Of a stretch of DNA of 50,268 nucleotides, positions 2,094-16,024 are shown one piece after another. Positions within the stretch are counted from its first letter, which is position 1. Every line of letters begins with the position of its first letter. Origin of the DNA: a virus. Its lineage: Duplodnaviria; Heunggongvirae; Uroviricota; Caudoviricetes. The position numbers and the translations under genes are program-made. The notes beneath the pieces were generated by a model. The model saw only the letters and a program-made list of their open reading frames with translations, searched no databases and had not been told where the DNA came from. The DNA is taken from positions 64,001 through 114,268 of IMG/VR virus record IMGVR_UViG_3300007734_000754; one strand, 5' to 3'.

Positions 2094-2633
2094 ATGAAAC
2101 TAATAAAAGTACTTCACGAAAATGCAGATACAGAAGAACAAACTGTAGATATAAAGTATTACAAGGATGTAAACGCTATTATCGCCTCTGTAGGTGGTAA
2201 GAAGGTTGGAGCACTTAGAGTTAAACCTTACCAAGACGGCTACCAAGTAGATTCTGTTATAGTTAATCCTGATTATAGAAACTTCGGAATAGGAAAAGAG
2301 ATGTATAGAACTGCATTTGAAAGTTTAAAAACATTATACTCAGACAAGTATCAAACACCGGATGCAAAAAGAGTTTGGGATAGTTTAATAAAGTCCGGTG
2401 AAGCTACTAGAGAAGGTCAACGATTCAAAATGATAAAGGCACTTGAAGAATCAATTAGCTTAACAGGTATATTAAAGGAATTAATAGACGATCCTGTTCA
2501 ACCAGGTATATTAAAAGATAGACTAGGAAAATTAACCTGTATAAAGGTTAGAACAGCTCATTCAGCATTAGGTAACAAAGGTACCCATTACGGAAAAGCA
2601 TTACAGAGATATCTTAATTACCATTGTCAATAA
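2094..2633 (+). CDS. GNAT-family acetyltransferase with an N-terminal leader and a short C-terminal Cys/His module
   Basis: Acetyl-CoA motif A: VIVNPDYRNFGIGKEMY; SxxQTPDAKRVW motif B. Confidence 0.75.
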   Translation: MKLIKVLHENADTEEQTVDIKYYKDVNAIIASVGGKKVGALRVKPYQDGYQVDSVIVNPDYRNFGIGKEMYRTAFESLKTLYSDKYQTPDAKRVWDSLIKSGEATREGQRFKMIKALEESISLTGILKELIDDPVQPGILKDRLGKLTCIKVRTAHSALGNKGTHYGKALQRYLNYHCQ

Positions 2634-2691
2634 AAAAAACTACTATTTATTTATATAGCAAAAAGCAATTACCGTATTTATATCCTAATAA

Positions 2692-4287
2692 ATGAAAAAA
2701 TCAAAACAACTAGTAGAAACCACGCAAGGAGCAGTAGAACTTCCAGCTGGTACAAATACTAACGATATTAAGAAGATGACAGCTCAAGGGCTTAACGTAA
2801 AACTTGTAAAACCTGGACAGCAATTAGAAGAAGAAGAAGGAGTAACACCTTTTGAGTATTCAAAAACTGATTCTGAAGCTTTAGGGCAACAGGTTGAAAG
2901 AGCGTTAATAAATACTTTAAAAGCTCAAGGAGATGAAATACATAGAAAACCTGACGGAAAACCTGACGTTGATCTAAATGCAGGAATTAACCGGTTTTCA
3001 ATTGAAGTAAACTACGGGGATAATGTAACTGCTAAGAATGATATTTTTAAATTTACAATTGATCCACAGACATCAAAATTGATGTTTAAGCTAGGTAAAC
3101 ATACAGTACCGCTTATCGGAATAGTTAGAACAACAGAAGGTAATAGTGAATCATTTAATACAGAATTACTAAAAAGAAATTTAGGAATAGTATTAAAAAA
3201 ATTAAAAGCTATGCCGAAGGTTGATGATCAACAACCAGAACCAGAAGTAGCACCTGAAGCACCTCAAGACGATTCTCTAACAGAAGAAGTATTAGATGAA
3301 ATCGAATTTACAATAAACGGTTTAGGGAAATATAGCAGTATTAGCAGTGATGCAGATACAATCACAGGAAGAGATCAAGGAGGAACAGTTAGAACTTTTT
3401 CTAAAAAGAAAGTAGAATTAGATAACCCGGGAATCTTTGATAAACAGCCAAGAGAAAGAAAGCCAAGAGAGAAAAAACCTCAAGGAGTTCGTCCTTATTC
3501 AGAAGCACAGTATAGAAAAGTTCTACAAGGAGCAATTGATGATGCTGGAAGTACAGAATTTGCATACGATATAGCAGAATCTATGATATTAGATCCTCAA
3601 ATCTTAGCTAGACTTGCAAAAGACTACCCAGGAGATTCAGCTAAAAAACTACAACAAAGACTACAGTGGGATTTAGAAGCTTGTGATTCACCAGAAGATG
3701 ATTACGATGATGATCACGAAGTAGCAGAAAATCTAGACTCAGTTGGACAAGGAGATGACGGTACTAACAACGATAGAGAAGATCTAGACATAGGACATCA
3801 AGATGATGAACCAGGAATGTTATTGTCAGATCTTTACGGTATTATGCAATCGGCAAAAAGCCTATATGAATTAGTATCACAATTTGAAGGACAAGGAGAA
3901 GTTGATTTTCCTCACTGGTGGCAAGCAAAAATAATAAATGCAAAAGCAAATCTATCTGCAGCAAGACAGTATTTAGATTTTGAAGTAAACAGACCACAAC
4001 AAGTAAACATAGCTTCAGCAGCATTAGATGAGTTAGGAGTTATAGATCAGAAACCAGCAGCACCAGCTGCAAATCAAGCTAAAGTTCCATCTGATGTAGC
4101 AGCATTAAATAAAGCAGTAAGTACAACAGCAGTAGCAGCTAGACAAAAAAACATCAATACTACAACTGAACTTCCAGGAGCAGTTGATAACTTTTTTCAG
4201 GGAATAGGACTTCCACCAGATAAAATTAAAAAAGGAAGTATTCTGAATATTGTAAGTAAAGAATTGACTAAGTTAGGGTACAAATAA
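2692..4287 (+). CDS. Large acidic multi-module protein, putative internal head protein
   Basis: 531 aa; modules separated by LVE, LEE, LTE, LDE and acidic linkers. Confidence 0.5.
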   Translation: MKKSKQLVETTQGAVELPAGTNTNDIKKMTAQGLNVKLVKPGQQLEEEEGVTPFEYSKTDSEALGQQVERALINTLKAQGDEIHRKPDGKPDVDLNAGINRFSIEVNYGDNVTAKNDIFKFTIDPQTSKLMFKLGKHTVPLIGIVRTTEGNSESFNTELLKRNLGIVLKKLKAMPKVDDQQPEPEVAPEAPQDDSLTEEVLDEIEFTINGLGKYSSISSDADTITGRDQGGTVRTFSKKKVELDNPGIFDKQPRERKPREKKPQGVRPYSEAQYRKVLQGAIDDAGSTEFAYDIAESMILDPQILARLAKDYPGDSAKKLQQRLQWDLEACDSPEDDYDDDHEVAENLDSVGQGDDGTNNDREDLDIGHQDDEPGMLLSDLYGIMQSAKSLYELVSQFEGQGEVDFPHWWQAKIINAKANLSAARQYLDFEVNRPQQVNIASAALDELGVIDQKPAAPAANQAKVPSDVAALNKAVSTTAVAARQKNINTTTELPGAVDNFFQGIGLPPDKIKKGSILNIVSKELTKLGYK

Positions 4288-4323
4288 TGCCACAGTTAGA
4301 TATTACCGGTTAAAGAAAGTAAA

Positions 4324-4842
4324 ATGAAAAAATCCCAATTAAGAGATATTATAGTTGAAGCATTTGTAGAAGTATTAAGAGAAGCAGAAGCTCCTGTACT
4401 AAAAACTTCTAGTCAAGAGATATTAGGAAAATTTCCCACTGTAAAAAAGACTTTAACGCGATTATTGTCTAGTGAGTACGATCAATTTGTAGAGGAGGTA
4501 AGATGGGTAGCACCAAAACCTTCGACGTTTCAAGTTGCATTAAAAAATGGACAGTCATTCTTTTTGAAGTGGACTGGAAAGGATTTTGAAGCACAAATTG
4601 AAGGTAAAAACTACTTCTTAGGAGGAGTATCAGAATACCAGCAAGCTTTAGATAAATTGAATGATCTTCTTAAATACGGACCAGTAACCCAAGGTGAAGA
4701 ACCAGGAGCAGAAGAATTTGGAGCAGAAGCAGGAACACCACCTGCAGAACCAGGAGCAGCAGGAGCAGAAGATTTTGGAGCAGTACCTGAAACACCAGAA
4801 GCAGAAACAGGTACAGAAGAAGAAACACCAACATCGCTATAA
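4324..4842 (+). CDS. Putative head-associated protein with [12 protein letters not shown]...VLRE leader and acidic Pro/Ala/Glu tail
   Basis: Leader resembles that of 12332..12700. Confidence 0.5.
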
Positions 4843-4844
4843 CT

Positions 4845-5654
4845 ATGAAGCTTTTAGAAGTACTACAGACAGATCACTATAAAGAGAGAAAAGAAGATAG
4901 ATCTCAAATAGTAGATATTCAGGTTGATTCTAAAGCATTTCAACCATATACAAGAGAAGAAGTTATTCCAAACCTAAAGCAACTTATAGAGGAGAGATTA
5001 TTAAAAGTTTTAAGAGCTTTTGAAAACTCTTCAATAAAGCAAGCTGGGAGTATAGTAAAAGCATTACCAGTTCTTACACCATATTTACAGAATAACGGAA
5101 AACAGTACCCATTACAGCTAACAACTAAAACAAGAGATAAAGATAAAGAGAATGTAGGTAATACTTATGTTATCGTTAAAATTGGAGATAGCTTGGTAAC
5201 AGTAATGGTAGTTCCAAAAGATGCTGATCTTATAACACAGACAAGAGAACACTTAGAGAAAAAAGTTGCTGAAAAAAAAGCAGATCCAAAAGTGCTAACC
5301 TATCCAATCGATATAGGCAGAACTATCAATTCAGATTATGTTATAGATATAAAAGAAGCAGCAAATGATGTTCAAGTAGGATTACAAAAAGCAGAAGTAC
5401 CTCAAGAAGATCTTCCTTATAAAATAAGAACAGATTACAGAAAAGATGCTACATTTACTCACAATACCTACGGTACAGGTAAAATCGTAAACACATCCTC
5501 AGGAATAAAAGGAGATCCGGGCATATCAGGAAAATTAGACTGGGTAGATGTTGATTTTGGGAAACCATTTTTAAAAGCAGGAAAATTGACATCTATTAGA
5601 AGAATAGATAATGTGTACACAACTAGACATTTTGCAAATAGATCACAAGATTAG
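4845..5654 (+). CDS. Hypothetical protein; possible small RNase-like N-terminal motif and SH3-like C-terminal domain
   Basis: TDHYKERKEDR near the N terminus; FTHNTYGTGKIV...VDVDFG at the C terminus. The ORF is solid; the function is speculative. Confidence 0.4.
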   Translation: MKLLEVLQTDHYKERKEDRSQIVDIQVDSKAFQPYTREEVIPNLKQLIEERLLKVLRAFENSSIKQAGSIVKALPVLTPYLQNNGKQYPLQLTTKTRDKDKENVGNTYVIVKIGDSLVTVMVVPKDADLITQTREHLEKKVAEKKADPKVLTYPIDIGRTINSDYVIDIKEAANDVQVGLQKAEVPQEDLPYKIRTDYRKDATFTHNTYGTGKIVNTSSGIKGDPGISGKLDWVDVDFGKPFLKAGKLTSIRRIDNVYTTRHFANRSQD

Positions 5655-5697
5655 TATTTAGAAAAAGAAGTACTATTTATAATTAAATAATATACAA

Positions 5698-6387
5698 ATG
5701 ACAGATAATTTCAACTTAAAAAAATTCTTAACAGAGAATAGGTTGACTACTAATGCAAAGGCACAAGAAGTAGCAGAAGAAAAGTTCTATGCTCCTGATT
5801 ATATAGCTCAAAAATACGGGAATAAAGCTAAAGAAATAGAGCAAAACATTCATGATGCTGAAGAAGCAGAGAACAATCCTAACTTGTGGGATCATTTTAC
5901 TTCTTTAGAAACACCAGGAGAGGTAGATGATTTTATTCAAGGATTTATTGACGAAGGAGTAAATGAGAATACAGAAGTTGAAGAAGTAACTTTAGGAAAT
6001 ACTCGTTTTGCAGTAGAAGAGCCAGATCCAATAGATGATGGAACAATTTTATCAATATCTAAACATAAAAATGGGTACTTTATAATAGGTGAAGTACGGG
6101 ACCAAGATGGAGATGTAAAAGAAGCATACGGATATGGAGTAGATTTTGACGGAAATGTAATTGAAGGTGTCTACGATGAAAAAGATCTTGATGGCGATAC
6201 AGCAGTAAGTGAAGGAACAGAAACATCTTGGAAAGATTTATGGAATGCATTACAAGCAGCTTTAGATAAAAAAGATGATCAAGAATCAACTGCAGCTTTA
6301 AAAGTAATTGGAAGAGCGGTAAGTTCTAAACTAAAAGGACATGTTAAGCAAGGAGCAGATGCTCTAAAAACACATTTAGAGAAATAA
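5698..6387 (+). CDS. Acidic putative internal head protein with leader MTDNFNLKKFLTENRLT
   Basis: Leader shared with the ORFs starting at 6400 and 7278; TATTTATA at 5674. Confidence 0.55.
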   Translation: MTDNFNLKKFLTENRLTTNAKAQEVAEEKFYAPDYIAQKYGNKAKEIEQNIHDAEEAENNPNLWDHFTSLETPGEVDDFIQGFIDEGVNENTEVEEVTLGNTRFAVEEPDPIDDGTILSISKHKNGYFIIGEVRDQDGDVKEAYGYGVDFDGNVIEGVYDEKDLDGDTAVSEGTETSWKDLWNALQAALDKKDDQESTAALKVIGRAVSSKLKGHVKQGADALKTHLEK

Positions 6388-6399
6388 TATATAATAAAC

Positions 6400-6760
6400 A
6401 TGGCAGATAACTTTAATTTAAGATCATTCTTATCAGAGAATAAACTTACAAAAAACACACAACTTCTTAAAGAAGGAAGTTTCCTTAGACGGAAAACCAG
6501 TAGACATGGGTTCAATCGAAATCGATGGAATAGACATGAACGACTACCCAGACTTTGTAGATGCTTATATCGTAGCAGCAGAATTTGAAGATGGTACTCC
6601 ATTAACAGATGACGAATTACAAGAACTTGAAGATCAAAATTACGGATTGACTAGTGAATTAATTCACGATAGACAGCTTTACCTAGAAGAAAAGAAAGAA
6701 ACTTGGGAAGAAGGAGTAAAAGCAAAAGAAACAGTAAAAAGAAGCAGTAAACGAAAATAA
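6400..6760 (+). CDS. Leader-bearing protein split by a +1 frame change near 6466-6476 (MADNFNLRSFLSENKLTKNTQLLKE / EVSLDGKPVDMGSIEIDGIDMNDYPDFVDAYI...)
   Basis: The 6400 frame carries the shared leader, then turns into implausible sequence; the +1 frame is open from 6422 and gives an acidic domain ending at 6760. Confidence 0.55.
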
Positions 6761-6761
6761 A

Positions 6762-7892
6762 ATGACAGATAGAGACAAGTACTTAACAAGATTAGTAGAG
6801 AATGCTTTAGGGATTCAAAGTGAAGATTTTCAAGAAGAAGGATACGGCGACGGTAACGCAAAATTTAAAGCAGAAAAAAGAGGATTACCACCAGTACAAG
6901 GTCCTCAATATTCAGAAGCAGCTAACGAAGAAATGGTAGAAAAAGAGCCACTTCCAAAATACGAAAACATCGAAAAATTGATGCAAGAAATCGAAGAGGG
7001 AACTAACAAAGCCATGTACGAATACAAAATCAAAAGAATGGAAGAAATTGCTGATATGCTAAAAGAGAAAGTAAGCTACCTAGAAGAAGGAGAGCATGCA
7101 GAATATACCGACAAAAAAGCTATTAGCCAACTATACAAAGACATTAAGAAGTTACAAGACGGAGCAGCAAAACTAAGAAAAGAATTTGATAAAAAATTCA
7201 ATAAAAAAGGAAAAGCAGCAGCTCCAAAAGTAGAAACAGAAACAGAAAAACCAACTTTACAAGAAAACAAAAACACTATGAAAAATTTTGATTTAAAAAA
7301 GTTCTTAACAGAGAACAAATTAACTTCTAACTCTAGAATGTTATTAAAAGAAAACTCAGACATGGATGAGAAAATGCAATTCTTTATGGACTTCATGGAA
7401 CAGTATGAAGCAGGAATGCCAGAAGCAGATATCTTAGAGATATTACAAGACTCATATGACATCCCAGAAGATGTAAACATGCAGATTTTAGAAAAAGCAA
7501 CATCTGAATTAGATCTTGTAATTAACGACATCTATACAGCAATTTTTGAATCAGAAAATCTTTTCGAAAAAGCTGGAAAAGGAGTACTTACTCAAGCAAA
7601 TAATATAAGTAAGAAAGCAGGTATGACAGAAATTATCGTAATCGTTGGCGGAGGTCAAGGAGGTATTGACGATGTAAGTACAGTAACTACACCATTAAGC
7701 TTTGAAAAATATTGTCAGAAAAAAGGAGTTACAGATTTTAATGAGAGCAGAACAATGGCTTCATCAGATATTGATGAAGAAACAAGCATAGCTTATGTAG
7801 ATGCAAACAACATTGATCCACAGATTAAAGCAGTAATACTAGACGATAATTCAGATTCGAATGATGTTTATGCAGCTTTAGAAACAATATAA
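6762..7892 (+). CDS. Coiled-coil/acidic protein containing an internal copy of the leader (MKNFDLKKFLTENKLT at 7278)
   Basis: In-frame ATG at 7278 preceded by A-rich AAAACAAAAACACT. Confidence 0.55.
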   Translation: MTDRDKYLTRLVENALGIQSEDFQEEGYGDGNAKFKAEKRGLPPVQGPQYSEAANEEMVEKEPLPKYENIEKLMQEIEEGTNKAMYEYKIKRMEEIADMLKEKVSYLEEGEHAEYTDKKAISQLYKDIKKLQDGAAKLRKEFDKKFNKKGKAAAPKVETETEKPTLQENKNTMKNFDLKKFLTENKLTSNSRMLLKENSDMDEKMQFFMDFMEQYEAGMPEADILEILQDSYDIPEDVNMQILEKATSELDLVINDIYTAIFESENLFEKAGKGVLTQANNISKKAGMTEIIVIVGGGQGGIDDVSTVTTPLSFEKYCQKKGVTDFNESRTMASSDIDEETSIAYVDANNIDPQIKAVILDDNSDSNDVYAALETI

Positions 7893-7913
7893 ACTGAAAA
7901 AGTAAAAAAAAAC

Positions 7914-7942
7914 AAGCCCACCCCATAAAGGTGGGTTTTTTT
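7914..7942 (+). terminator. Intrinsic terminator
   Basis: CCCACC-CCATAAA-GGTGGG followed by a T7 run, directly after the 7892 stop. Confidence 0.8.
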
Positions 7943-7951
7943 ATATACACA

Positions 7952-7959
7952 TATTTATA
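7952..7959 (+). promoter_or_regulatory. Putative late promoter TATTTATA upstream of terL
   Basis: One of about 18 intergenic TATTTAT(A/T) copies (also 1924, 2644, 2675, 5674, 9557, 11456, 16081, 19018, 19746, 24359, 29699, 33315, 35549, 36135, 37150, 39535, 44315, 47123). Confidence 0.6.
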
Positions 7960-7976
7960 ATATATAAGTATATAAT

Positions 7977-9551
7977 ATGTCACAACAAGATATAAAACAA
8001 ATAGTTGCACAAGAGTACATAAAGTGCTCAAAAGACCCGGCTTACTTCATGAAGAAGTATTGCTATATTCAGCATCCAACAAGAGGTAGAATCTTATTTA
8101 ACCTCTACCCATTTCAGGAAGGAGTACTCCATTTATTTAGAGATGAGAAGTTTATAGTAACTCTTAAATCAAGACAGTTAGGAATCTCCACATTAGCCTC
8201 AGCATATGCTCTATGGTTAATGATTTTTCATAAAGATAAAAACGTACTAGCATTAGCAATTACTCAAGCAACAGCTAGAAACCTTGTAACCAAAACGATT
8301 TTCATGTATGAGAATCTACCAAAATGGTTACAATTACCTTTCACAGAGAAGAATAAACTATCACTTAGACTTAAAAACGGTTCCAAAATAACAGCTAAAT
8401 CATCTAATGCAGATGCTGCTCGTTCAGAAGCGGTATCATTACTATTAATAGATGAGGCTGCCTTCATTGATAATATTGAAGAAACATTTACTGCAGCACA
8501 ACAAACACTTGCAACCGGAGGACAATGTATGGCTCTTTCTACTCCAAATGGTGTAGGAAACTGGTTCCATAAAACATGGGAAAAAGCTGAAGCAGGAGAG
8601 AATGGATTTGTACCTGTTAAATTAAAATGGGATGTACATCCGGAAAGAAAACAAGACTGGAGAGATGAACAAACAAGGCAGTTAGGAGAGAAGCAAGCAG
8701 CTCAAGAGTGTGATTGTGACTTCTTATCATCAGGAGATACTGTAATAGAGGTTGAGAATATGTCCTTCTATGAAGAAACCTATGTAAAAGATCCGATAGA
8801 AAAAAGAGGTGTAGATGGAAATCTATGGATATGGGAAGCACCTGACTATCAAAAATCTTATATGGTTGTTGCCGACGTCGCTAGAGGTGACTCTACCGAC
8901 TACTCTGGCTTTCATGTCTTTGATATAGAATCAGCTACACAAGTTGCCGAATATAAAGGAAAGATATCTCCTAAAGAATACGGGAATGTATTGGTAGGAA
9001 TAGCAACAGAATACTGCGATGCACTTCTAGTAATAGAGAATGCCAATATTGGATGGTCAACCATAGAACAAGTAATATCCAGAGAATATAAAAACCTATA
9101 CTATTCATCAAGATCAGATACTGAAACAGTTGAATCATATATGGCCAAGTTCGAAAGAGATAAACTAGTACCTGGATTTACAATGTCTCTTAAGACAAGA
9201 CCACTTGTAATAGCTAAAATGACCGAATACATACGGGAAAGATCGGTTATAGTACAGTCTAAGAGGTTATTAGCTGAAATGAGGGTATTCATATGGAAGA
9301 ACGGAAAGGCACAGGCACAGACGGGATATAATGATGATTTAGTTATGGCCTTTGCTACAGCCCTATATGTTAGAGATACAGCCATTAGAATGAGACAACA
9401 AGGAATGGATCTTTCTAGAGCCACAATGTCTTCCTTTGTAAGCCTTAATCAAAGAACGCCTGGAATTTATAATGTTGCTCCTATGCAAAATAATCCGTAT
9501 CTTATGGAAACGCCTGGTGGTCAGGAGGACTTAACCTGGCTATTAGGATAA
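7977..9551 (+). CDS. terL: Terminase large subunit (T4 gp17-like)
   Basis: Walker A KSRQLGIST, Walker B LLLIDEAA, coupling STPNG, nuclease ADVARG..DYS and NDDLVMA. Confidence 0.95.
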   Translation: MSQQDIKQIVAQEYIKCSKDPAYFMKKYCYIQHPTRGRILFNLYPFQEGVLHLFRDEKFIVTLKSRQLGISTLASAYALWLMIFHKDKNVLALAITQATARNLVTKTIFMYENLPKWLQLPFTEKNKLSLRLKNGSKITAKSSNADAARSEAVSLLLIDEAAFIDNIEETFTAAQQTLATGGQCMALSTPNGVGNWFHKTWEKAEAGENGFVPVKLKWDVHPERKQDWRDEQTRQLGEKQAAQECDCDFLSSGDTVIEVENMSFYEETYVKDPIEKRGVDGNLWIWEAPDYQKSYMVVADVARGDSTDYSGFHVFDIESATQVAEYKGKISPKEYGNVLVGIATEYCDALLVIENANIGWSTIEQVISREYKNLYYSSRSDTETVESYMAKFERDKLVPGFTMSLKTRPLVIAKMTEYIRERSVIVQSKRLLAEMRVFIWKNGKAQAQTGYNDDLVMAFATALYVRDTAIRMRQQGMDLSRATMSSFVSLNQRTPGIYNVAPMQNNPYLMETPGGQEDLTWLLG

Positions 9552-9556
9552 AGTAC

Positions 9557-9568
9557 TATTTATAAATA
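9557..9568 (+). promoter_or_regulatory. Putative late promoter, palindrome TATTTATAAATA, upstream of portal
   Basis: Perfect 12-bp palindrome containing both TATTTATA and the T4 late consensus TATAAATA; the same 12-mer occurs at 19746 and 24359. Confidence 0.65.
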
Positions 9569-9582
9569 AAACATTTTAAAAA

Positions 9583-11451
9583 ATGGCAGAAAAAAATCTA
9601 TTCTCCAATTTACAAAGATTATTCTCAACAGACATCTTAGTTAGAAACGTAGGAGGAGATGAATTAAAGATTGCTGACGTAAATCAAATTCAAACAACTG
9701 GTAAATACCAGACCAATTCCTTATTAGACAGATTCTCTCGTCTATACATATACAACAATAAGAATATATTCAATCCAAATCTTAACTATCAAACGTTAAG
9801 AATACAATTATACTCTGATTATGAAGCAATGGATACAGATCCTTTAGTTGCTTCCACTTTAGATATTCTAGCAGATGAATCTTGCTTAAAAAACGATATG
9901 GGAGAGGTTCTTTCTATCAAATCATCTGATGAAAACATTCAAAGAGTTCTTTATAACCTTTATTACGATGTACTAAACATAGAGTTTAATCTTTGGTCAT
10001 GGGTTAGGAATATGTGTAAGTATGGGGATTTCTTCTTAAAATTAGAGATCTCAGAGAAATTTGGAGTCTATAACGTACTTCCTTATACGGTCTATAATAT
10101 GGTTCGATATGAAGGACAAGACCCAAAAGAACCAGCAAAAGTAGTCTTTACAATTGACCCGGACGGATTAGCTTCTTCAGCAGACCCAAATTACATCCCA
10201 AAAGCAAACAAAACAATTATTACCCTTCAGAATTACGAAGTAGCACACTTTAGGTTAATCTCAGATACAAACTACCTTCCTTATGGTAGATCTGCATTAG
10301 AACCAGCTAGAAAAATCTTTAAACAACTAACCTTAATGGAGGATGCGATGTTGATTCATAGAATCATGAGAGCTCCTGAGAAGAGAATGTTCTATATAAA
10401 TGTAGGAGCTATTCCACCAAACGAAGTGGAGCAGTTCATGCAAAAGACTATTAACAGTATCAAGAAAACTCCATATGTAGATCCTCAAACAGGAGAGTAT
10501 AATCTAAGATTCAATATGATGAATATGATGGAGGATTTTTATCTTCCAGTTCGTGGAGGTGATACTTCAACTCGTATTGATACAACTAAAGGATTAGACT
10601 ATGATGGTATTCAGGACGTTGAATACCTAAGAGATAAAATGTTTGCTGCTTTAAGAATACCAAAAGCATATTTTGGATATGAAAAAGACCTAACAGGTAA
10701 AGCAACTCTTGCAGCAGAAGATATTCGTTTTGCTAGATCAGTAGAAAGAATTCAAAGAATTATAGAAAGTGAATTGACTAAAATTGGATTGGTGCATTTA
10801 TATGCTCAAGGATTCACAGGAGAGTCTTTAACCAATTTTGAAATCAAATTAACAACTCCTTCTATTGTTTATGAGCAAGAAAAAGTAGCATTACTAAAAG
10901 AAAAAATTGACCTTGCTCGTCAAATGCAAGAAACAAAATTATTCTCTTCAGATTATATTTATGACCATATCTTCAACCTATCAGAAGACACTTATAATGA
11001 AATGAGAGATCTAGTAAGAGAAGATGCTAAACGTGACTTTAGACTTGCACAAATAGAGAATGAAGGAAACGATCCAGTTGTAACTGGGCAATCTTACGGA
11101 ACTCCTCACGATTTAGCTTCAATATACGGAGATAGAGTGATGGGAGATGTACCTGCTGGATATAGTGAAAAAGAAGGTAATCCGGAAGGAAGACCTAGAG
11201 AGAAAATGTCAATGCTAGGAACACAAAAAGATCCACTAGGAGGAAGAGATAGATTAGGGGTACATGGAATGAAAGGTGGATATCCAAGCGATAATGAAAA
11301 TGTAAAAGAAATTAGTAACACCACTCAAGTTGTTTACCTAAGAAATAAAGATTTATTTACTTCACCTGCAAAGAAGCTTATCTTTGAAAAAGTAGAGGAA
11401 GAAACCTCAGATTTGCTTAATGAAGATAATATAAGAGATTTAGATAATTAA
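9583..11451 (+). CDS. gp20: Portal protein (T4 gp20-like)
   Basis: MEDAMLIHRIMRAPEKRMFYINVG, EDFYLPVRGG..T.IDT, YLRDKMFAALRIP; follows terL. Confidence 0.95.
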   Translation: MAEKNLFSNLQRLFSTDILVRNVGGDELKIADVNQIQTTGKYQTNSLLDRFSRLYIYNNKNIFNPNLNYQTLRIQLYSDYEAMDTDPLVASTLDILADESCLKNDMGEVLSIKSSDENIQRVLYNLYYDVLNIEFNLWSWVRNMCKYGDFFLKLEISEKFGVYNVLPYTVYNMVRYEGQDPKEPAKVVFTIDPDGLASSADPNYIPKANKTIITLQNYEVAHFRLISDTNYLPYGRSALEPARKIFKQLTLMEDAMLIHRIMRAPEKRMFYINVGAIPPNEVEQFMQKTINSIKKTPYVDPQTGEYNLRFNMMNMMEDFYLPVRGGDTSTRIDTTKGLDYDGIQDVEYLRDKMFAALRIPKAYFGYEKDLTGKATLAAEDIRFARSVERIQRIIESELTKIGLVHLYAQGFTGESLTNFEIKLTTPSIVYEQEKVALLKEKIDLARQMQETKLFSSDYIYDHIFNLSEDTYNEMRDLVREDAKRDFRLAQIENEGNDPVVTGQSYGTPHDLASIYGDRVMGDVPAGYSEKEGNPEGRPREKMSMLGTQKDPLGGRDRLGVHGMKGGYPSDNENVKEISNTTQVVYLRNKDLFTSPAKKLIFEKVEEETSDLLNEDNIRDLDN

Positions 11452-11480
11452 TAGATATTTATAACAAAGATAATACAACT

Positions 11481-12335
11481 GTGAAAATTAAACATTCCAA
11501 ATACAAGAATACAGGCCTTATTTTTGAACTGCTAGTAAAACAAATAGCAGCAGATACTTTATCTAGAAAAGAATCACCAGCCGTAAAAATATTAAGAAAA
11601 TTTTATGCAGGAAATACTACTCTTGTAAAAGAGTTTAAGCTATACGATTTCGTAATAAAAAATAAGGGAGTAGGTAGTAAGAAAGCAGAAACAATACTAG
11701 GTACTATTGTAGAGATTTCAAAAAAATTAGATTTGAATTCTCTTAGAAAACAAAAGTACGAATTAATAAAAGAGTTAAAAGCACATTATGACTTAGAAGA
11801 GTTTTTCTCTATTAAAGTCGAAGCTTATAAACCTCTTGCAGCTTTATACTGCTTAATAGAAGCACAAAATACACCGGACTTAGTAGATCCTAGCGTGTTT
11901 GTAGATAATAAAACTACTATTCTTGAGCACTTAACTCAATCAAAACAATCTGAAGGAAAGGTAACTGATACTTTAATGGAAGAATATTCAAAATTTGATA
12001 AAGATTTACGATTATTATCATATAAAATATTGCTAGAAAAATTCAATAACCAATATAAAGATTTACTTCCAGAGCAAAAGAACATATTAAAAGAGTTTAT
12101 TGTATCTGCTAATTCATCTACAAGATTGAGAACAGTAGTAAATGAAGAAGTAACTAGACTAAGAGTTGTTATTTCTGAATTAAAAGAAAAAATAACAGAT
12201 AGTGTTGTAAAAATTAAACTAGAAGAGGTTTATAAAGCAATAATACCTTTAAAAAATACACAAAAGGTCGATGACAATCATTTAGTTTCTTTAATGCAAT
12301 ACTATGAACTAGTAAATGAATTAAAAAATCTATGA
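11481..12335 (+). CDS. Putative prohead core-associated protein (GTG start)
   Basis: 284 aa helical protein immediately after portal; TATTTATA at 11456. Confidence 0.5.
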   Translation: MKIKHSKYKNTGLIFELLVKQIAADTLSRKESPAVKILRKFYAGNTTLVKEFKLYDFVIKNKGVGSKKAETILGTIVEISKKLDLNSLRKQKYELIKELKAHYDLEEFFSIKVEAYKPLAALYCLIEAQNTPDLVDPSVFVDNKTTILEHLTQSKQSEGKVTDTLMEEYSKFDKDLRLLSYKILLEKFNNQYKDLLPEQKNILKEFIVSANSSTRLRTVVNEEVTRLRVVISELKEKITDSVVKIKLEEVYKAIIPLKNTQKVDDNHLVSLMQYYELVNELKNL

Positions 12336-12700
12336 AAAGATCGGTACTAGAAAGAATAATAAGAGAAGTATTATCGGAAGATGGGAGTACAACAGGTACC
12401 GGAGCATCATTCTCACCAGGACAAGGAGAGCAGTATGCAACCCCTTTTGCTTTTGCTAAACCAGGACAGAAAAAAGGTGCTGGTATAATGGCAAAGGATG
12501 GTTATAAGGAAGTTAAAAGACCAAAACATCCTTCACATTCAGACTTAGTTGATTATTTAGATGAAATGCATACTCAAACACCTCATGCTTTTGTATCGGA
12601 AGAGGAAATGATGAACAGTGAAGCAGTTAAACATACGGAAGAAATGGGTTATGAATTAGCAAACAAAACTAAAAAAGCATCAGATAAAAAGAAAAAATAG
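12332..12700 (+). CDS. Putative internal head protein, leader MKRSVLERIIREVLSE
   Basis: Leader like 4324; contains GEQYATPFAF motif; lies in the head module. Confidence 0.5.
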   Translation: MKRSVLERIIREVLSEDGSTTGTGASFSPGQGEQYATPFAFAKPGQKKGAGIMAKDGYKEVKRPKHPSHSDLVDYLDEMHTQTPHAFVSEEEMMNSEAVKHTEEMGYELANKTKKASDKKKK

Positions 12701-12701
12701 C

Positions 12702-14837
12702 ATGAGAACATTACAAGAAAAATATAACGCAATTCAAGAGGGAAAATTCTCTAAGGATCATTTCTTAGCTGAAGCTAGAATGCAACAACCACAGCTAGTA
12801 ACTCGTTTCAACGGATACGACGATGCAGTTCAGATCCTTAAAAATAAAGGAATGATTGTAGAGGCTATATCAACAGATGCAGCTTATGTTCATCAAATTA
12901 CAGGATGTGGTCAAGATGCTGCACAAAACTTTATTGACGATAATACCATAGACAGTAAAAAACTAGCTGATTATGTTAAGCAGCATAAAGATTCGAAAGA
13001 AAAATATGATGTGCGAGATATCATTGCTGGTACAGGAGTAGGAGAGAATAAAGGCTTTAAAGCTAGATTTATTAAACAGTTGAAAGAAACTGTAACAGAA
13101 GGTAAGGATGTGACTAAACTTGCAATAGAATACATACTAGGGAAAGATATTGCAAAATACCATGACGAAGCAAATAACTATGCATATCAACTTCCAGGAT
13201 CAACAACATGGAAAACTATAAGCAAAAAAGAAGTAGATAAAACAGTTGCTGACCATAAAGATAGTTTACTTAAAGAAGCAAAACTTACTAAAAAGAGTTT
13301 AACAGATTACAGATACAAGCCAACTAACGATATGGACAAATATCCATACGAACAAATACTAAGAGGATTAAGAGTTGAATTGGAAAGTATGAAAGTAACA
13401 GATACTCCAACTGCAGAAGAATATCAAAAAGCAATAGCAAAAGTTGCTAAGAATCTAGAAAAAGATTCAATCTTCTATACAAATCAATTAGCTGGATTTA
13501 ATCCAAATAAGAAACGTACAGATGTAATGACTCCTGTAGATCAGAAAAAGATATTTAAAACAAACGGTACTAAAGGAGAAAAAGCTACAGATAATAAAGA
13601 TGTTGATAACGGTATGAAAAAATTACCTGTTACAACTAATTTTACTATTGTAAAAGAAGGTATAAAAAAAGTAATTAAGTCTATACTAAAGGAAGATGAG
13701 GATTGGGACAAATCTGGTAGACATATCGAGTACGGAGTACCGGAACATGGTGATGAAGATGATTTATATGACTTATACGGAAATGATGAAGAAAACCTAG
13801 AAGAAGGTCCAGCTCAAAACAATCCAAAGATCCAAAAATTAGTAGATGGTATTAATGATTTAATTCGTCAAGCAAAGGATTCTGACGGAGATCCAATCGG
13901 AGTTGTCGAACCAGGTGGAACTTGGGAAGAACCGGAAATGTATTCTCCAATTGAATATACAAACGGAGCTTTAAAGATAACTAAAATGAGTCCTTACAAA
14001 GGTATTCCTTCGACAGATGTTATCAAAGCAGGAAATATGGAATTCGATGGACTTCCTACTCTAAGACTTATTATGAGAATGTATAAGAAAGCTGTTAAAA
14101 AAGCAGGTCAAGATGCATATCCAGATGAAAACTTAGATGAAGCATCTTATGAAGAAGAAGCAGTTGATCCATTAAGAGACTATAAACAAGCAACAGAACA
14201 AGTAACAGAGGGTAAAACTCGTGTAAATGATCTTTTTGCAGCATTAGATGCTAAAGGGTTTAGCCCAGAACAAATACAAGATACAGCTTTTTTAGCAAAA
14301 AAGATAGATAATATAATGTGGACTCTTAATGATGTAGCTGATAATCCAGAAGAATTAGCTAAAAGATATCAAGATAGAGTAAGTAATATGAATGAAGACT
14401 CAGATGGAGATTACGAACACGATAAAGACGTAGCTGGAGAAGCAGAAAGACTTTATGATGCAGGATATGCTTTTTTCTTAAAAGGAAGAGGTAAAGAAGC
14501 AGAAGCATTACGTCAAGCAGCCCTTAAAAAAGCATCTTGGTTAAGCTGGGGAGAAGATGATCTTCCTCCATATACAAAAGATGGAGAAGAAGTGGCAGAT
14601 GATATTTCACATCCAAGAGGATATGAAGAAGCTAGTGATGCAGAGACTGAAGAAGATCTTTACAAAGAAGGAAAATCAGAAAAAGAATTAAGAGCAGAAT
14701 GGGAAAAACACCAAGCAACATGTCATCCAGAAGATAAAATGTCTTATATGGAATGGAGAAGTGAAATGGGAATTAATGACGAAGAAGATCTTTACGAAAC
14801 TAGAAAAGCAAAATCGTTATCTGAATTATTAAACTAA
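12702..14837 (+). CDS. Modular acidic polyprotein-like head protein
   Basis: 711 aa; repeated [ILVM]-x-E junctions (IVE, LKE, VTE, LKE, LKE, LEE, LDE, VTE, MNE); directly upstream of the prohead protease. Confidence 0.55.
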   Translation: MRTLQEKYNAIQEGKFSKDHFLAEARMQQPQLVTRFNGYDDAVQILKNKGMIVEAISTDAAYVHQITGCGQDAAQNFIDDNTIDSKKLADYVKQHKDSKEKYDVRDIIAGTGVGENKGFKARFIKQLKETVTEGKDVTKLAIEYILGKDIAKYHDEANNYAYQLPGSTTWKTISKKEVDKTVADHKDSLLKEAKLTKKSLTDYRYKPTNDMDKYPYEQILRGLRVELESMKVTDTPTAEEYQKAIAKVAKNLEKDSIFYTNQLAGFNPNKKRTDVMTPVDQKKIFKTNGTKGEKATDNKDVDNGMKKLPVTTNFTIVKEGIKKVIKSILKEDEDWDKSGRHIEYGVPEHGDEDDLYDLYGNDEENLEEGPAQNNPKIQKLVDGINDLIRQAKDSDGDPIGVVEPGGTWEEPEMYSPIEYTNGALKITKMSPYKGIPSTDVIKAGNMEFDGLPTLRLIMRMYKKAVKKAGQDAYPDENLDEASYEEEAVDPLRDYKQATEQVTEGKTRVNDLFAALDAKGFSPEQIQDTAFLAKKIDNIMWTLNDVADNPEELAKRYQDRVSNMNEDSDGDYEHDKDVAGEAERLYDAGYAFFLKGRGKEAEALRQAALKKASWLSWGEDDLPPYTKDGEEVADDISHPRGYEEASDAETEEDLYKEGKSEKELRAEWEKHQATCHPEDKMSYMEWRSEMGINDEEDLYETRKAKSLSELLN

Positions 14838-14841
14838 GAAA

Positions 14842-15423
14842 ATGAACAATCCATTACTAATAAATGTAACTCCTTTCAAAGGACTTCTTACTGAACGAAA
14901 AGATACACCAGGTGTTTTTGAAGTAACAGGTATCATGCAAAGAGCAGGAGCTAAGAATCAAAACGGAAGAATTTACGAAAAAGATATTCTTCAAAGAGAG
15001 GTTCAAAATTATATAGAAAATTTTGTAAAGGTAGGAAATGCATACGGTGAATTAGATCATCCAGAATCAGCAATAGTATCTTTAAAAAATGCATCCCATG
15101 TCGTAAAAGAATTATGGTGGGAGGGAGAAGATTTAATGGGTAAGGTAGAACTACTAAACACACCTTCAGGAAATATTGTAAAAGAAATACTAAGAGGAGG
15201 ACATACAATTGGAATCTCTTCTAGAGGAACAGGATCAGTAACACAAACAAATGAAGGAACTTTAATGGTTCAACCAGACTTTGAATTAGTATGCTGGGAT
15301 TTCGTTTCTAATCCTTCTACACAAGGAGCTTTTATGAATCCAATTTCATTAAACGAAGGAAAACAAATAGAAGGAAAATACGATAGATTAGACTCTATTA
15401 TAAACAATATACTAAGAGCATAA
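14842..15423 (+). CDS. gp21: Prohead core scaffold protease (T4 gp21-like)
   Basis: NQNGRIY, GELDHP (His), GISSRG (Ser), WDFVSNPS (Asp). Confidence 0.93.
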   Translation: MNNPLLINVTPFKGLLTERKDTPGVFEVTGIMQRAGAKNQNGRIYEKDILQREVQNYIENFVKVGNAYGELDHPESAIVSLKNASHVVKELWWEGEDLMGKVELLNTPSGNIVKEILRGGHTIGISSRGTGSVTQTNEGTLMVQPDFELVCWDFVSNPSTQGAFMNPISLNEGKQIEGKYDRLDSIINNILRA

Positions 15424-15686
15424 TGGAAAGAGATTTTGATATACATAATTGGCAAGCAAAGTTCTTAAAAGAAAGTCAAAGAAGATTAGTAAAAGAAGAT
15501 TTACAAAGTGACCTACTATTAGCAAATGATGGACCTTTAAGTACATTTGGAGTAATACAAAGAGCTATAGAAATGGCAGAAAGTAATAGAGTATCAACAA
15601 TAGCACTATCAAATGCACTATACGAAGCATTAAAAGAAATAGGGGCACTCAAAGATATAGATATTCCTTCAAACGAATTCAGATAA
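15423..15686 (+). CDS. Small putative head protein, leader MERDFDIHNWQAKFLKE
   Basis: Leader shared with the next ORF; TAATG overlap with the protease gene. Confidence 0.55.
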   Translation: MERDFDIHNWQAKFLKESQRRLVKEDLQSDLLLANDGPLSTFGVIQRAIEMAESNRVSTIALSNALYEALKEIGALKDIDIPSNEFR

Positions 15687-15688
15687 AA

Positions 15689-16024
15689 ATGAAAGATTTC
15701 GACATACATGAGTGGCAAGCAAAGTATTTAAGAGAATCAGTAGAGTTTAAATCTATACAAGATCCTAATATGCAAGATGATGTACCGTCTATAACAATGC
15801 AGATAATAGATGATCATGAATCGGATTCACCTAAACTATTCCTTCAGATAGAGGGAATGCTAGGACACGATGGAAGTAATGGGAAGATTGCAATACTAAA
15901 AGATCACCCAGAACTACAACAAGAGGTATTACAGAAAATGCAAGTAGAGATTCAAAAAACTTTTAGAAGAGTAATACATTCTGTACTAGGACAACCATTT
16001 GGATTAGACGAAGAAAATAAATAG
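15689..16024 (+). CDS. Small putative head protein, leader MKDFDIHEWQAKYLRE
   Basis: Leader shared with the previous ORF; the bodies are unrelated. Confidence 0.55.
   Translation: MKDFDIHEWQAKYLRESVEFKSIQDPNMQDDVPSITMQIIDDHESDSPKLFLQIEGMLGHDGSNGKIAILKDHPELQQEVLQKMQVEIQKTFRRVIHSVLGQPFGLDEENK

What the first reader, a model, noticed from the sequence alone, without database searches (positions are those of the whole stretch)
2094..16024. Family of otherwise unrelated proteins sharing [LIV]-x-E-terminated leaders: a candidate capsid cargo-loading system
Seen in sequence: leader A [DK]NF[ND]L[KR][KS]FL[TS]EN[KR]LT at 5698, 6400 and 7278; leader B DFDIH[NE]WQAK[FY]L[KR]E at 15423 and 15689; leader C MKxSxLxxII-x-E...VL-x-E at 4324 and 12332; and MKLIKVLHE at 2094. 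The bodies behind the leaders are unrelated. The genes cluster around terL, portal and protease, and several have TATTTAT late motifs. Established: T4 internal proteins carry a short capsid-targeting sequence and gp21 cleaves after [LI]-x-E. The MCP here (MELNQLLE) and the protease (LLTE, LNE) carry the same motif. Inference: portable leaders recruit interchangeable cargo into the prohead for cleavage and ejection into the host. Several leader classes serving about ten cargo genes would be a larger modular system than T4's IPI-III.
Basis: partly seen in the sequence, partly recalled or inferred. Interest (0 to 1): 0.82.

Follow-up and report, generated by a model that had tools for sequence, protein, structure and literature searches.

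The report
Capsid-loading leader tags on phage proteins
This T4-like Flavobacterium phage and its many uncultured relatives put a few conserved short leaders, each ending in the cut motif of the head-maturation protease, on many unrelated small proteins; this most likely loads them into the phage head as T4's capsid-targeting sequence does, but no experiment has tested it.

Summary
The window is the head module of a T4-like Flavobacterium myophage (terL 96% identical to vB_FspM_immuto).

- **Leader A** is a sharply bounded 25-residue unit, M-x-x-NF[DN]L[KR]xFLxENKLTxNSxLLxE. It sits on at least 1,462 protein clusters, mostly at residue 1, with unrelated, Pfam-less, acidic bodies.
- **Leader B** is an A-like variant. 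It occupies the slot just after the S77 prohead protease, on at least 11 unrelated bodies.
- **Leaders C and D** are weak as pairs inside the window but recur across the clade.
- **Leader C of gene 12332** is homologous to the end of the capsid protein's propeptide.
- **A fifth leader**, seen in the sister phage, copies the scaffold-like protein's C-terminal peptide.

All leaders end in [LIV]xE, the gp21-type motif. T4 gp23 is cut at FLTE|A, and leader A has an invariant FLxE.

Best reading: these are T4-type capsid-targeting propeptides removed by the head protease (about 0.6). Whether the proteins are injected cargo or expendable core filler is open, because the bodies are acidic and T4's internal proteins are basic.

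Packaging and cleavage are unmeasured. This scan has noted similar leaders in at least 33 other T4-like genomes. I class it as a new variant of a known kind.

The parts
5698..5772 (+). Leader A, copy 1 (MTDNFNLKKFLTENRLTTNAKAQEV), N-terminus of the 229-aa protein 5698-6387. It has FLTE at residues 10-13 and lacks the canonical second LLxE site.
   Evidence: TATTTAT 24 nt upstream; body pI 4.3
6400..6474 (+). Leader A, copy 2 (MADNFNLRSFLSENKLTKNTQLLKE), head of a gene that is one ORF in relatives (e.g. P0007, 413 aa). Here it is broken by an extra G near 6475 and a second frame change near 6745.
6478..7892 (+). Remainder of the broken leader A gene: frame +1 piece up to 6760, then ORF 6762-7892. 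It includes the conserved Lys-rich coiled-coil linker that precedes the internal leader.
7278..7352 (+). Leader A, copy 3 (MKNFDLKKFLTENKLTSNSRMLLKE), internal to ORF 6762-7892 and preceded by TLQE. It is followed by two cargo modules, X and Y, each of which occurs alone behind a leader in other genomes.
15423..15473 (+). Leader B, copy 1 (MERDFDIHNWQAKFLKE), on the 87-aa protein 15423-15686 directly after the protease.
15689..15736 (+). Leader B, copy 2 (MKDFDIHEWQAKYLRE), on the 111-aa protein 15689-16024.
12332..12439 (+). Leader C of the conserved 122-aa head-operon protein. Its residues 5-36 are homologous to MCP residues 48-78, that is, the end of the propeptide with both cut motifs plus the start of the mature N-arm.
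   Evidence: E 9e-10; conserved in 31 of 80 loci
4324..4383 (+). Leader C-type N-terminus ([20 protein letters not shown]) of the 172-aa protein 4324-4842.
2094..2120 (+). Leader D-type N-terminus (MKLIKVLHE) of a 179-aa protein with a GNAT acetyltransferase domain. Its C-terminal module sits behind leader C in relatives.
14842..15423 (+). Prohead protease, Peptidase_S77 (T4 gp21 family). It has a conserved [LI]xE at residues 16-18 and LNE near the C-terminus.
   Evidence: E 5e-34; T4 gp21 structure 5JBL, E 3.5e-23
16189..17235 (+). Scaffold-like acidic protein, the positional analogue of T4 gp22. It has 4.0 [LI]xE per 100 aa against a genome mean of 1.25. No sequence similarity to gp22.
17203..17232 (+). 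C-terminal peptide RRMQKLAGII of the scaffold-like protein. It is conserved across the clade and reused as an N-terminal leader ('leader E') in immuto gp083 and gp230 and in 73 IMG/VR loci.
17268..17444 (+). Predicted MCP (gp23-type) propeptide with four clade-conserved [LIV]xE sites: LLE8, LLE34, ILE50 and VSE59. The mature N-terminus of T4 gp23* aligns to about residue 52.
7977..11451 (+). terL (7977-9551) and gp20-type portal (9583-11451). Apart from the broken-gene fragment 6506-6760, these are the only head-region proteins without an N-terminal [LI]xE.

Best explanation
The leaders are capsid-targeting propeptides of a T4-type head-assembly system. Each is a short N-terminal peptide (12-25 residues), and occasionally an internal or C-terminal one. 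The inferred mechanism is that the peptide binds the assembling prohead core or shell and so carries whatever is fused to it into the prohead. After assembly, the S77 (gp21-family) prohead protease would cut after the [LIV]xE at the end of the leader, releasing the body inside the head. For leader A the likely cuts are after FLxE (E13) and after LLxE (E25). Because only the leader is needed, it has been joined to many unrelated, fast-evolving, mostly acidic orphan proteins.

Shown here: the leaders, their portability, their sharp boundary at the cut motif, their link to T4-type head modules, and the sequence identity of two leader classes with parts of head-assembly proteins.

Inferred: binding to the prohead, cleavage, presence in the virion, and any delivery into the host.
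For: 1. **T4-type head module.** terL is 96% identical to immuto and 34% to T4-like cyanophages. The portal is annotated gp20. The protease matches PF03420 at E 5e-34 and the T4 gp21 structure at E 3.5e-23. The MCP matches gp23 at E 2e-30.

2. **Leader A has a sharp boundary.** In 144 N-terminal copies, counting from the F of NF[DN]L, conservation is F0 100%, L2 99%, F5 96%, L6 100%, E8 100%, N9 100%, T12 99% and E20 89%. It then falls to 28% or less. 141 of 144 copies have a second [LIVM]xE, and in 126 it ends exactly at +20.

3. **The invariant FLxE matches T4 cut sites.** FLxE equals the sequence context of T4 gp23 (SFLTE|A, cut after residue 65) and resembles gp67 NFLIE|G. The L/I-x-E specificity and the 65-residue gp23 propeptide are from PMC9026906.

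4. **Portability.**
   - 1,462 clusters match the leader A profile, nearly all from residue 1.
   - 198 bodies fall into 72 clusters, 52 of them singletons.
   - The own-genome bodies show no pairwise similarity.
   - Almost no Pfam domains (8 weak hits, at most 2 of 143 members each).
   - Cargo modules are swapped behind the leader.

5. **Selection acts on the peptide, not the DNA.** The same-codon fraction is 0.61 against 0.51 expected from codon usage.

6. **Association with T4-type heads.**
   - 52 of 80 IMG/VR loci have terL within 6 kb.
   - In a more divergent subclade, leader A genes lie directly beside the protease, between protease and scaffold.
   - 5 of 5 long contigs with leader A encode PF03420.
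   - Leader A is virtually absent from 185,579 cellular genomes: 3 loci on 2 MAG contigs.

7. **Leader B.** It always lies right after the protease, on at least 11 unrelated bodies. A hybrid, FNIHKWNKERYLAENK, links B to A.

8. **Mimicry of assembly proteins.**
   - Residues 5-36 of protein 12332 match the MCP propeptide-to-mature junction (E 9e-10).
   - Leader E matches the scaffold-like C-terminus (E 8e-7) and is followed by ITE.

9. **N-terminal [LI]xE is enriched in the head region.** It occurs in the first 30 residues of 14 of 17 head-region proteins against 46 of 135 elsewhere (p 3e-4). The figures for immuto are 14 of 19 against 60 of 206 (p 2e-4). terL and portal lack it.

10. **Internal leader copies look like polyprotein joints.** 74 of 81 are preceded by [LIVM]xE within 14 residues, against a background of 0.33.

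11. **Precedent.** T4 internal proteins share only a capsid-targeting sequence (PMC3012670, PMC9026906). T4 IPII and IPIII start MKTYQEFIAE|A.
Against: - No virion proteome, N-terminal data or packaging experiment exists for this phage or for immuto (one search found no such paper).
- The bodies are strongly acidic: median pI 4.7 for leader A and 4.3 for leader B. T4 IPI-III are basic, pI 8.9-9.5.
- Some leader A genes sit among replication or lysis genes.
- [LIV]xE is a short motif that occurs in about a third of random 30-residue windows.
- One leader B variant lacks the Glu (KYLKNS in L016).
- The region boundaries used for the enrichment tests were chosen after seeing the data.
- Leaders A and B show no similarity to any other head protein, so their binding partner is unknown.
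Confidence: 0.6

Rival explanations
1. The leaders do target the prohead and are cut there, but the proteins are not injected cargo. They are expendable, hypervariable core or scaffold accessory proteins, like T4 gp67, gp68 and gp22. They would be degraded and expelled before DNA packaging and never reach the host.
For: The bodies are as acidic as T4 gp22 (pI 4.6) and gp67 (pI 4.1), and unlike the basic IPs. Leader B genes occupy a slot beside the protease, inside the portal-to-MCP head operon, much as genes 67 and 68 do in T4. Leader A bodies carry more internal [LI]xE than the genome average, 1.98 against 1.25 per 100 aa.
Against: A structural helper would not be expected to have unrelated bodies in every relative (72 clusters among 198 bodies; 11 leader B bodies in one slot). 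Such turnover is typical of arms-race proteins. Many bodies are long (300-800 aa).
Confidence: 0.2
2. The leaders are docking peptides for a target other than the capsid, such as a host factor, a phage replication or transcription hub, or a chaperonin. The terminal [LIV]xE is then a by-product of an amphipathic helix rich in L, I, K and E.
For: Four of nine leader A genes in the two genomes lie away from the head genes. No partner has been identified. [LIV]xE is common in these AT-rich proteomes.
Against: Leader genes sit inside the protease-scaffold-MCP operon. Leader E is identical to the scaffold-like C-terminus, and leader C of 12332 is homologous to the MCP propeptide end. Conservation stops exactly at the second cut motif. 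Leader A was found only in T4-type contexts.
Confidence: 0.13
3. The leaders are nucleic-acid-level cassettes, either translation-initiation enhancers for a host without Shine-Dalgarno sequences or recombination joints for gene shuffling. On this view the peptide itself has no function.
For: The leaders are built from A/T-rich codons, start with MKK or MxN, and flank a hyperplastic region upstream of terL.
Against: Synonymous codons vary freely while the residues are kept (0.61 against 0.51 expected). 81 of 225 copies are internal or C-terminal, in frame within long ORFs. The conserved residues follow a hydrophobic and aromatic pattern rather than a base pattern.
Confidence: 0.05

Closest known systems
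Capsid-targeting sequence (CTS) of T4 internal proteins IPI, IPII, IPIII and Alt, removed by gp21 (Mullaney and Black 1996, as reviewed in PMC9026906 and PMC3012670)
   Same: A T4-type head module with an S77 protease. A short N-terminal leader is shared by otherwise unrelated proteins. The leader ends in L/I-x-E, with an aromatic residue a few positions before F-[IL]-x-E (T4 MKTYQEFIAE; leader A NFDLKKFLTE). Cargo genes are scattered and polymorphic between relatives. T4 Alt is processed at both ends, which parallels proteins here that carry a leader at both ends.
   Different: There is no sequence homology to the T4 CTS. Leader A is 25 residues with two cut motifs, against 10 in T4. There are at least four or five leader classes in one clade. 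Internal and C-terminal copies exist. The scale is thousands of body clusters. The bodies are acidic rather than basic. Nothing has been shown experimentally.
T4 prohead core proteins gp67, gp68 and scaffold gp22
   Same: The genes lie beside the protease in the portal-to-MCP operon. The proteins are small, acidic and rich in L/I-x-E. T4 gp67 contains NFLIE|G.
   Different: T4 has fixed genes with conserved bodies. Here the same slot holds unrelated bodies behind a constant leader. The scaffold-like protein has no sequence similarity to gp22.
Phage P1 DarB N-terminal capsid-targeting signal (PMC9024508)
   Same: An N-terminal signal of about 30 residues is sufficient to load a protein, including a reporter, into the head. 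The cargo is anti-restriction.
   Different: P1 has one known cargo per signal, a different head-assembly system, and no shared leader family on many bodies.
Propeptides of inner-body and ejection proteins of phiKZ, 201phi2-1 and SPN3US, cut by a gp21-related protease (PMC9026906, PMC5694885)
   Same: Many head-internal proteins are processed after Glu at short motifs, with redundant sites within the propeptides.
   Different: Those propeptides are not a single portable conserved leader, and those are jumbo phages with an inner body.
Encapsulin cargo-loading peptides, and the phage P22 scaffold C-terminal coat-binding helix used to load cargo (from my own knowledge, not checked here)
   Same: A short terminal peptide that binds the shell interior is enough to load a protein. 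Leader E, being the scaffold-like C-terminal peptide, follows the same logic.
   Different: Those peptides are not removed by a maturation protease, and there is no homology.

Membership tests
T4-type CTS / internal-protein system | The phage encodes a T4-type head module with a gp21-family (Peptidase_S77) prohead protease | tested here: met
   PF03420 E 5e-34; T4 gp21 structure 5JBL E 3.5e-23; gp20-type portal and gp23-type MCP
T4-type CTS / internal-protein system | A short N-terminal leader is shared by proteins whose bodies are unrelated | tested here: met
T4-type CTS / internal-protein system | The leader ends in the protease consensus L/I-x-E | tested here: met
   FLxE is invariant, and a second [LIVM]xE is present in 141 of 144 copies exactly where conservation ends. 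Leader B ends in [FY]L[KR]E in all but one variant (exception).
T4-type CTS / internal-protein system | Sequence homology of the leader to the T4 CTS (MKTYQEFIAE) | tested here: inconclusive
   Only the pattern of an aromatic residue followed by F-[IL]-x-E is shared, compared by eye. The peptides are too short for a homology test.
T4-type CTS / internal-protein system | The mature proteins are small, basic and DNA-associated | tested here: not met
   Median pI is 4.7 for leader A bodies and 4.3 for leader B bodies, against 8.9-9.5 for T4 IPI-III.
T4-type CTS / internal-protein system | The proteins are present in proheads or virions and the leader is removed by the protease | not testable with these tools
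   No proteome was found for this clade.
T4-type CTS / internal-protein system | The leader alone suffices to load a foreign protein | not testable with these tools
   This needs a reporter fusion in the cultured host of immuto.
Substrates of the S77 prohead protease in this clade | The bona fide substrates (MCP propeptide, protease termini, scaffold) carry conserved [LI]xE at the positions expected from T4 | tested here: met
   The MCP sites LLE8, LLE34, ILE50 and V[SA]E59 are conserved in 20 MCPs, and T4 gp23* residue 1 aligns to about residue 52. The protease has a conserved [LI]xE at residues 16-18. The scaffold-like protein has 4.0 sites per 100 aa.

The most novel reading that the evidence does not exclude
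Capsid-targeting leaders arise as copies of the terminal peptides that head-assembly proteins themselves use. Leader E is the C-terminal peptide of the scaffold-like protein. Leader C of gene 12332 is the end of the MCP propeptide. T4's own CTS resembles the gp22 N-terminus (MKTYQEFIAE|A against MLKEQLIAE|A). Any protein fused to such a mimic would be co-assembled into the prohead and released by the maturation protease. If so, this is a general rule for predicting packaged proteins in any phage. In this clade the rule would have produced an unusually large set of cargo (at least 1,462 clusters for one leader), including multi-cargo polyproteins with leaders as joints.
Probability: 0.35. Interest if true: 0.8.

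Novelty: new variant of a known kind. Interest (0 to 1): 0.62.

Why it matters
Proteins that phages carry in the head and deliver with their DNA are the first phage factors to meet host defences. Outside T4, P1 and the phiKZ group, very few are known. If these leaders are loading tags, simple profiles of leaders A, B, C, D and E would list thousands of candidate packaged proteins of abundant aquatic Bacteroidota phages directly from metagenomes.

A cultured member of the clade exists, vB_FspM_immuto on Flavobacterium sp. LMO8, so the prediction can be tested by virion mass spectrometry. The tags would also be ready-made handles for loading foreign proteins into these capsids.

The identity between one leader and the scaffold-like C-terminus, and between another leader and the MCP propeptide end, suggests how such tags originate.

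Tried and rejected
- **Complex prediction, protease with leader A.** I used alignments A5 and A6. The result was 'no answer' with score 0.00. This is evidence neither for nor against binding.
- **Structure of the 7278 protein.** Predicted from a 5-row alignment, it gave mean pLDDT 46, with the leader region below 50. This was too poor for a fold search, so none was run.
- **ESM Atlas search with the 5698 body.** There were no usable feature hits, and all structural matches had TM below 0.5 on a poor model.
- **Family scans of the window's leader proteins.** Pfam found only a GNAT domain in 2094 and S77 in the protease. PHROGs gave only two weak matches to families of unknown function, both for 2094. 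A Pfam scan of 143 leader A proteins found nothing meaningful.
- **Scaffold-like protein against T4 gp22.** No significant similarity, so its scaffold role rests on position and composition.
- **The gene upstream of terL as a small terminase.** I rejected this because its body varies between relatives and there are no terminase Pfam hits.
- **Full-text search for the leader peptides.** Zero papers.
- **Single-linkage clustering of bodies.** It merged 99 bodies, probably through shared modules. The figure of 72 clusters is therefore a lower bound on body diversity.
- **First-site versus second-site cleavage.** This cannot be decided from sequence.

Full report
**What the window is.** All long ORFs lie on the + strand. 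terL (7977-9551) is 96% identical to that of Flavobacterium phage vB_FspM_immuto and about 34% identical to T4-like cyanophage gp17. The head operon reads as follows:
- terL, then a gp20-type portal (9583-11451);
- a 284-aa protein, a 122-aa protein (12332) and a 711-aa protein;
- a Peptidase_S77 prohead protease (14842-15423; PF03420 E 5e-34; T4 gp21 structure 5JBL E 3.5e-23);
- two small proteins (15423, 15689);
- an acidic scaffold-like protein (16189-17235);
- a gp23-type MCP (17268-18944).

The window is bases 64001-114268 of a 114-kb viral contig. I also loaded the complete 160-kb immuto genome for comparison.

**Check of the observation.** There are two corrections. The leader at 7278 is an in-frame internal ATG of ORF 6762-7892. 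The leader at 6400 heads a gene that is a single ORF in relatives such as P0007 (413 aa). In the window that gene is broken by an extra G near 6475 and a second frame change near 6745.

I compared all N-termini of the own and immuto genomes and excluded pairs whose bodies are BLAST-related. The null maximum was 34. Bodies behind the window's leaders show no pairwise similarity.

The in-window pairs for leader C and for MKLIKVLHE/MKLLEVLQ are not significant by themselves. As motifs they recur at N-termini across about 1.5 Mb of related loci, where I estimated by hand from residue frequencies that about 0.15 and 0.015 matches would occur by chance:
- MKKS[EQ]Lxx[LI][IV]xE: 94 of 95 matches start at the first ATG of the ORF, on 13 unrelated body clusters.
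- M(I)KLLxLLKE: 13 distinct proteins.

**Anatomy of leader A.** A profile built from the five own-genome copies found 1,462 cluster representatives at E<=1e-3 among 1.84 billion proteins. Nearly all matches start at residue 1. IMG/VR gave more than 595 pattern matches, of which 252 were confirmed.

Counting from the F of NF[DN]L, conservation in 144 N-terminal copies is as follows:

| Position | Residue | Conservation |
|---|---|---|
| -4 | M | 100% |
| 0 | F | 100% |
| 2 | L | 99% |
| 5 | F | 96% |
| 6 | L | 100% |
| 8 | E | 100% |
| 9 | N | 100% |
| 10 | K | 90% |
| 11 | L | 93% |
| 12 | T | 99% |
| 14 | N | 93% |
| 20 | E | 89% |
| beyond 20 | any | 28% or less |

So the unit is 25 residues. 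It has an invariant FLxE in the middle and a [LIVM]xE at its very end. That second site is present in 141 of 144 copies, and in 126 it ends exactly at +20.

Synonymous codons vary nearly as freely as codon usage predicts (0.61 against 0.51). The peptide is therefore under selection, not the DNA.

Bodies are diverse:
- 198 bodies form 72 clusters, 52 of them singletons.
- They have essentially no Pfam domains.
- They are modular. The body after 7278 is module X plus module Y, and each module occurs alone behind a leader elsewhere.

**Internal and C-terminal copies.** Of 225 leader A copies in the top 150 proteins, 81 are internal or C-terminal. Of these, 74 are preceded by [LIVM]xE within 14 residues, typically ...ALQE-G, against a background of 0.33. 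Twenty-five are C-terminal remnants such as ...ALQEGTFDLRKFLAENRK*.

In many relatives the gene just upstream of terL has this structure: leader A, a variable body, a Lys-rich coiled coil, then LQE and a second leader A. These look like polyproteins with leaders as joints. T4 Alt is likewise processed at both ends (PMC9026906).

**Link to the head machinery.**
1. 52 of 80 leader A loci have terL within 6 kb.
2. In a more divergent subclade (protease about 75% identical), leader A genes lie directly before or after the protease, inside the protease-scaffold-MCP operon. An independent example, P0055, follows a Peptidase_S77 gene by 5 bases. P0022 lies about 5 kb upstream of Terminase_6N and Portal_T4 genes.
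3. All five long contigs with leader A encode PF03420, with 1-4 leader A hits each.
4. One genome from each of 185,579 bacterial and archaeal species yielded only three loci on two MAG contigs. Among 50,697 phage records, only the immuto phages matched.
5. Leader B (M-x-x-[DN]F[DN]IHxWQAK[FY]L[KR]E) occurs in 24 IMG/VR loci. It is always right after the protease, on at least 11 unrelated small bodies. A hybrid, MKDTFNIHKWNKERYLAENK, shows that B is A with an insertion.

**The cut motif.** T4 gp21 cuts after L/I-x-E (PMC9026906). In the T4 genome, gp23 reads ...GSFLTE|AEIGG, gp67 ...NFLIE|G, gp24 MAKINELLRE|S, and IPII/IPIII MKTYQEFIAE|A. The invariant KFLTE|N of leader A is the same tetrapeptide as the gp23 site.

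The window's MCP has four [LIV]xE sites, LLE8, LLE34, ILE50 and VSE59, conserved in 20 clade MCPs. The mature N-terminus of T4 gp23* aligns to about residue 52.

The protease keeps [LI]xE at residues 16-18 across the clade. The scaffold-like protein has 4.0 [LI]xE per 100 aa against a genome mean of 1.25.

An [LI]xE within the first 30 residues is found in 14 of 17 head-region proteins against 46 of 135 elsewhere (p 3e-4). The three exceptions are terL, portal and a fragment of the broken gene. Immuto gives 14 of 19 against 60 of 206 (p 2e-4). A sliding count along both genomes peaks over this region. The region limits were chosen after seeing the data, so these p-values are optimistic.

**Leaders that copy assembly proteins.**
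- Residues 5-36 of protein 12332 (VLERIIREVLSEDGSTTGTGASFSPGQGEQYA) align to MCP residues 48-78 (ILENQAKQLVSET-SATGTGASFAAGQGEQWA) at E 9e-10. This 'leader C' is therefore the end of the MCP propeptide, with both cut motifs, plus the start of the mature N-arm.
- The scaffold-like protein ends in RRMQKLAGII(K)* throughout the clade.
- Immuto gp083 and gp230 begin MKKQILSEQF[RK]RMQ[KF]LAGIITE|S on unrelated bodies.
- This 'leader E' occurs in 73 IMG/VR loci, often in tandem arrays of up to five genes with different bodies.
- Leader E matches the window's scaffold-like C-terminus at E 8e-7.
- T4's CTS similarly resembles the gp22 N-terminus (MLKEQLIAE|A).

This is the strongest mechanistic clue. 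At least two leader classes are literally pieces of proteins that must enter the prohead.

**Interpretation.** The best reading is a T4-type capsid-targeting and processing system (confidence about 0.6). [quoted passage not shown] It has an analogue in P1 DarB (PMC9024508).

Several features differ from T4:
- The leaders are unrelated in sequence to the T4 CTS.
- Leader A is longer and has two cut motifs.
- There are several leader classes.
- Internal and C-terminal copies exist.
- The scale is far larger.
- The bodies are acidic (median pI 4.7 for A and 4.3 for B, against a genome median of 5.7), whereas T4 IPI-III are basic.

The acidity leaves open whether the bodies are injected cargo or expendable core filler like gp67 and gp22. 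It fits either. DNA-mimic anti-restriction proteins are also acidic (from my own knowledge, not checked here). Rapid body turnover favours an arms-race role, which is inference.

Nothing here shows packaging, cleavage or ejection. A complex prediction of protease with leader gave no verdict, and a structure model was too poor to use.

**Earlier notes of this scan.** A word search returned 33 notes on CTS-like leaders in other T4-like genomes. One related window lists MKKSQLKKIIKE and MKLLQLLKEA. These agree with my reading but are unchecked AI notes, and they did not set my scores.

**Verdict.** This is a new variant of a known kind, and it is testable in the cultured sister phage.

Noticed in passing
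window 6400-7892: The leader A gene upstream of terL is broken in the window by an extra G near 6475 (GAAG[G]AAGTT) and a second frame change near 6745, relative to the intact orthologue P0007. It could be a natural pseudogene, recoding, or an assembly error.
   Followed up: partly
window 12332-12439 and 17409-17501: The small conserved head-operon protein 12332 shares the MCP's propeptide end and N-arm start (TGTGASFxxGQGEQ[YW]A), at E 9e-10. It may occupy an MCP N-arm site or be a minor capsid component processed like the MCP.
   Followed up: partly
window 17203-17232; immuto gp083 and gp230; L118-L190: The scaffold-like C-terminal peptide RRMQKLAGII is reused as an N-terminal leader (MKKQILSEQFRRMQKLAGIITE) on dozens of unrelated bodies in 73 IMG/VR loci, often in tandem arrays. 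There is no N-terminal copy in the 114-kb own contig.
   Followed up: yes
window 1924, 2644-2681, 5674, 7952, 9557, 11456, 19018, 24359, 35549, 37150, 44315, 47123: TATTTAT lies about 20-30 nt upstream of many structural-gene start codons (47 matches against 32.7 expected in the window). It is a candidate late-promoter or initiation motif of this phage group.
   Followed up: partly
window 2094-2633: This GNAT acetyltransferase-domain protein has a C-terminal module (...ALQRYLNYHCQ) that sits behind leader C and different middle parts in relatives. This is module swapping within one genomic slot. If loaded into the head, it would be an enzyme cargo, as T4 Alt is.
   Followed up: partly
window 12702-14837: The 711-aa protein between portal and protease has a conserved N-terminus (MRTLQEKYNAIQEGKFSKDHFLAE, three [LI]xE) but a variable remainder. 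Thirty loci match it, none over more than half its length.
   Followed up: no
window 3910-3945 (protein 2692-4287, residues 405-416): There is an internal DFPHWWQAKII segment resembling leader B (DFDIHNWQAKFL). The match is not significant (E about 2).
   Followed up: no
L117 1449-5351: A related phage has a 1,300-aa Portal_T4 gene interrupted by intein and LAGLIDADG domains.
   Followed up: no
L192 and L194 (CALMEO010000055.1, 104.6 kb): A contig binned into an 'uncultured bacterium' MAG carries two leader A genes. It is probably a phage contig of this clade that was mis-binned.
   Followed up: no
L004 (immuto gp077 and gp067): The GenBank names 'cob(I)alamin adenosyltransferase PduO' for gp077 and 'DNA polymerase phi-like' for gp067 look like over-annotations. 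gp077 is a leader A protein. gp067 is the scaffold-like protein, ending in ...WQKLAGIIK.
   Followed up: partly
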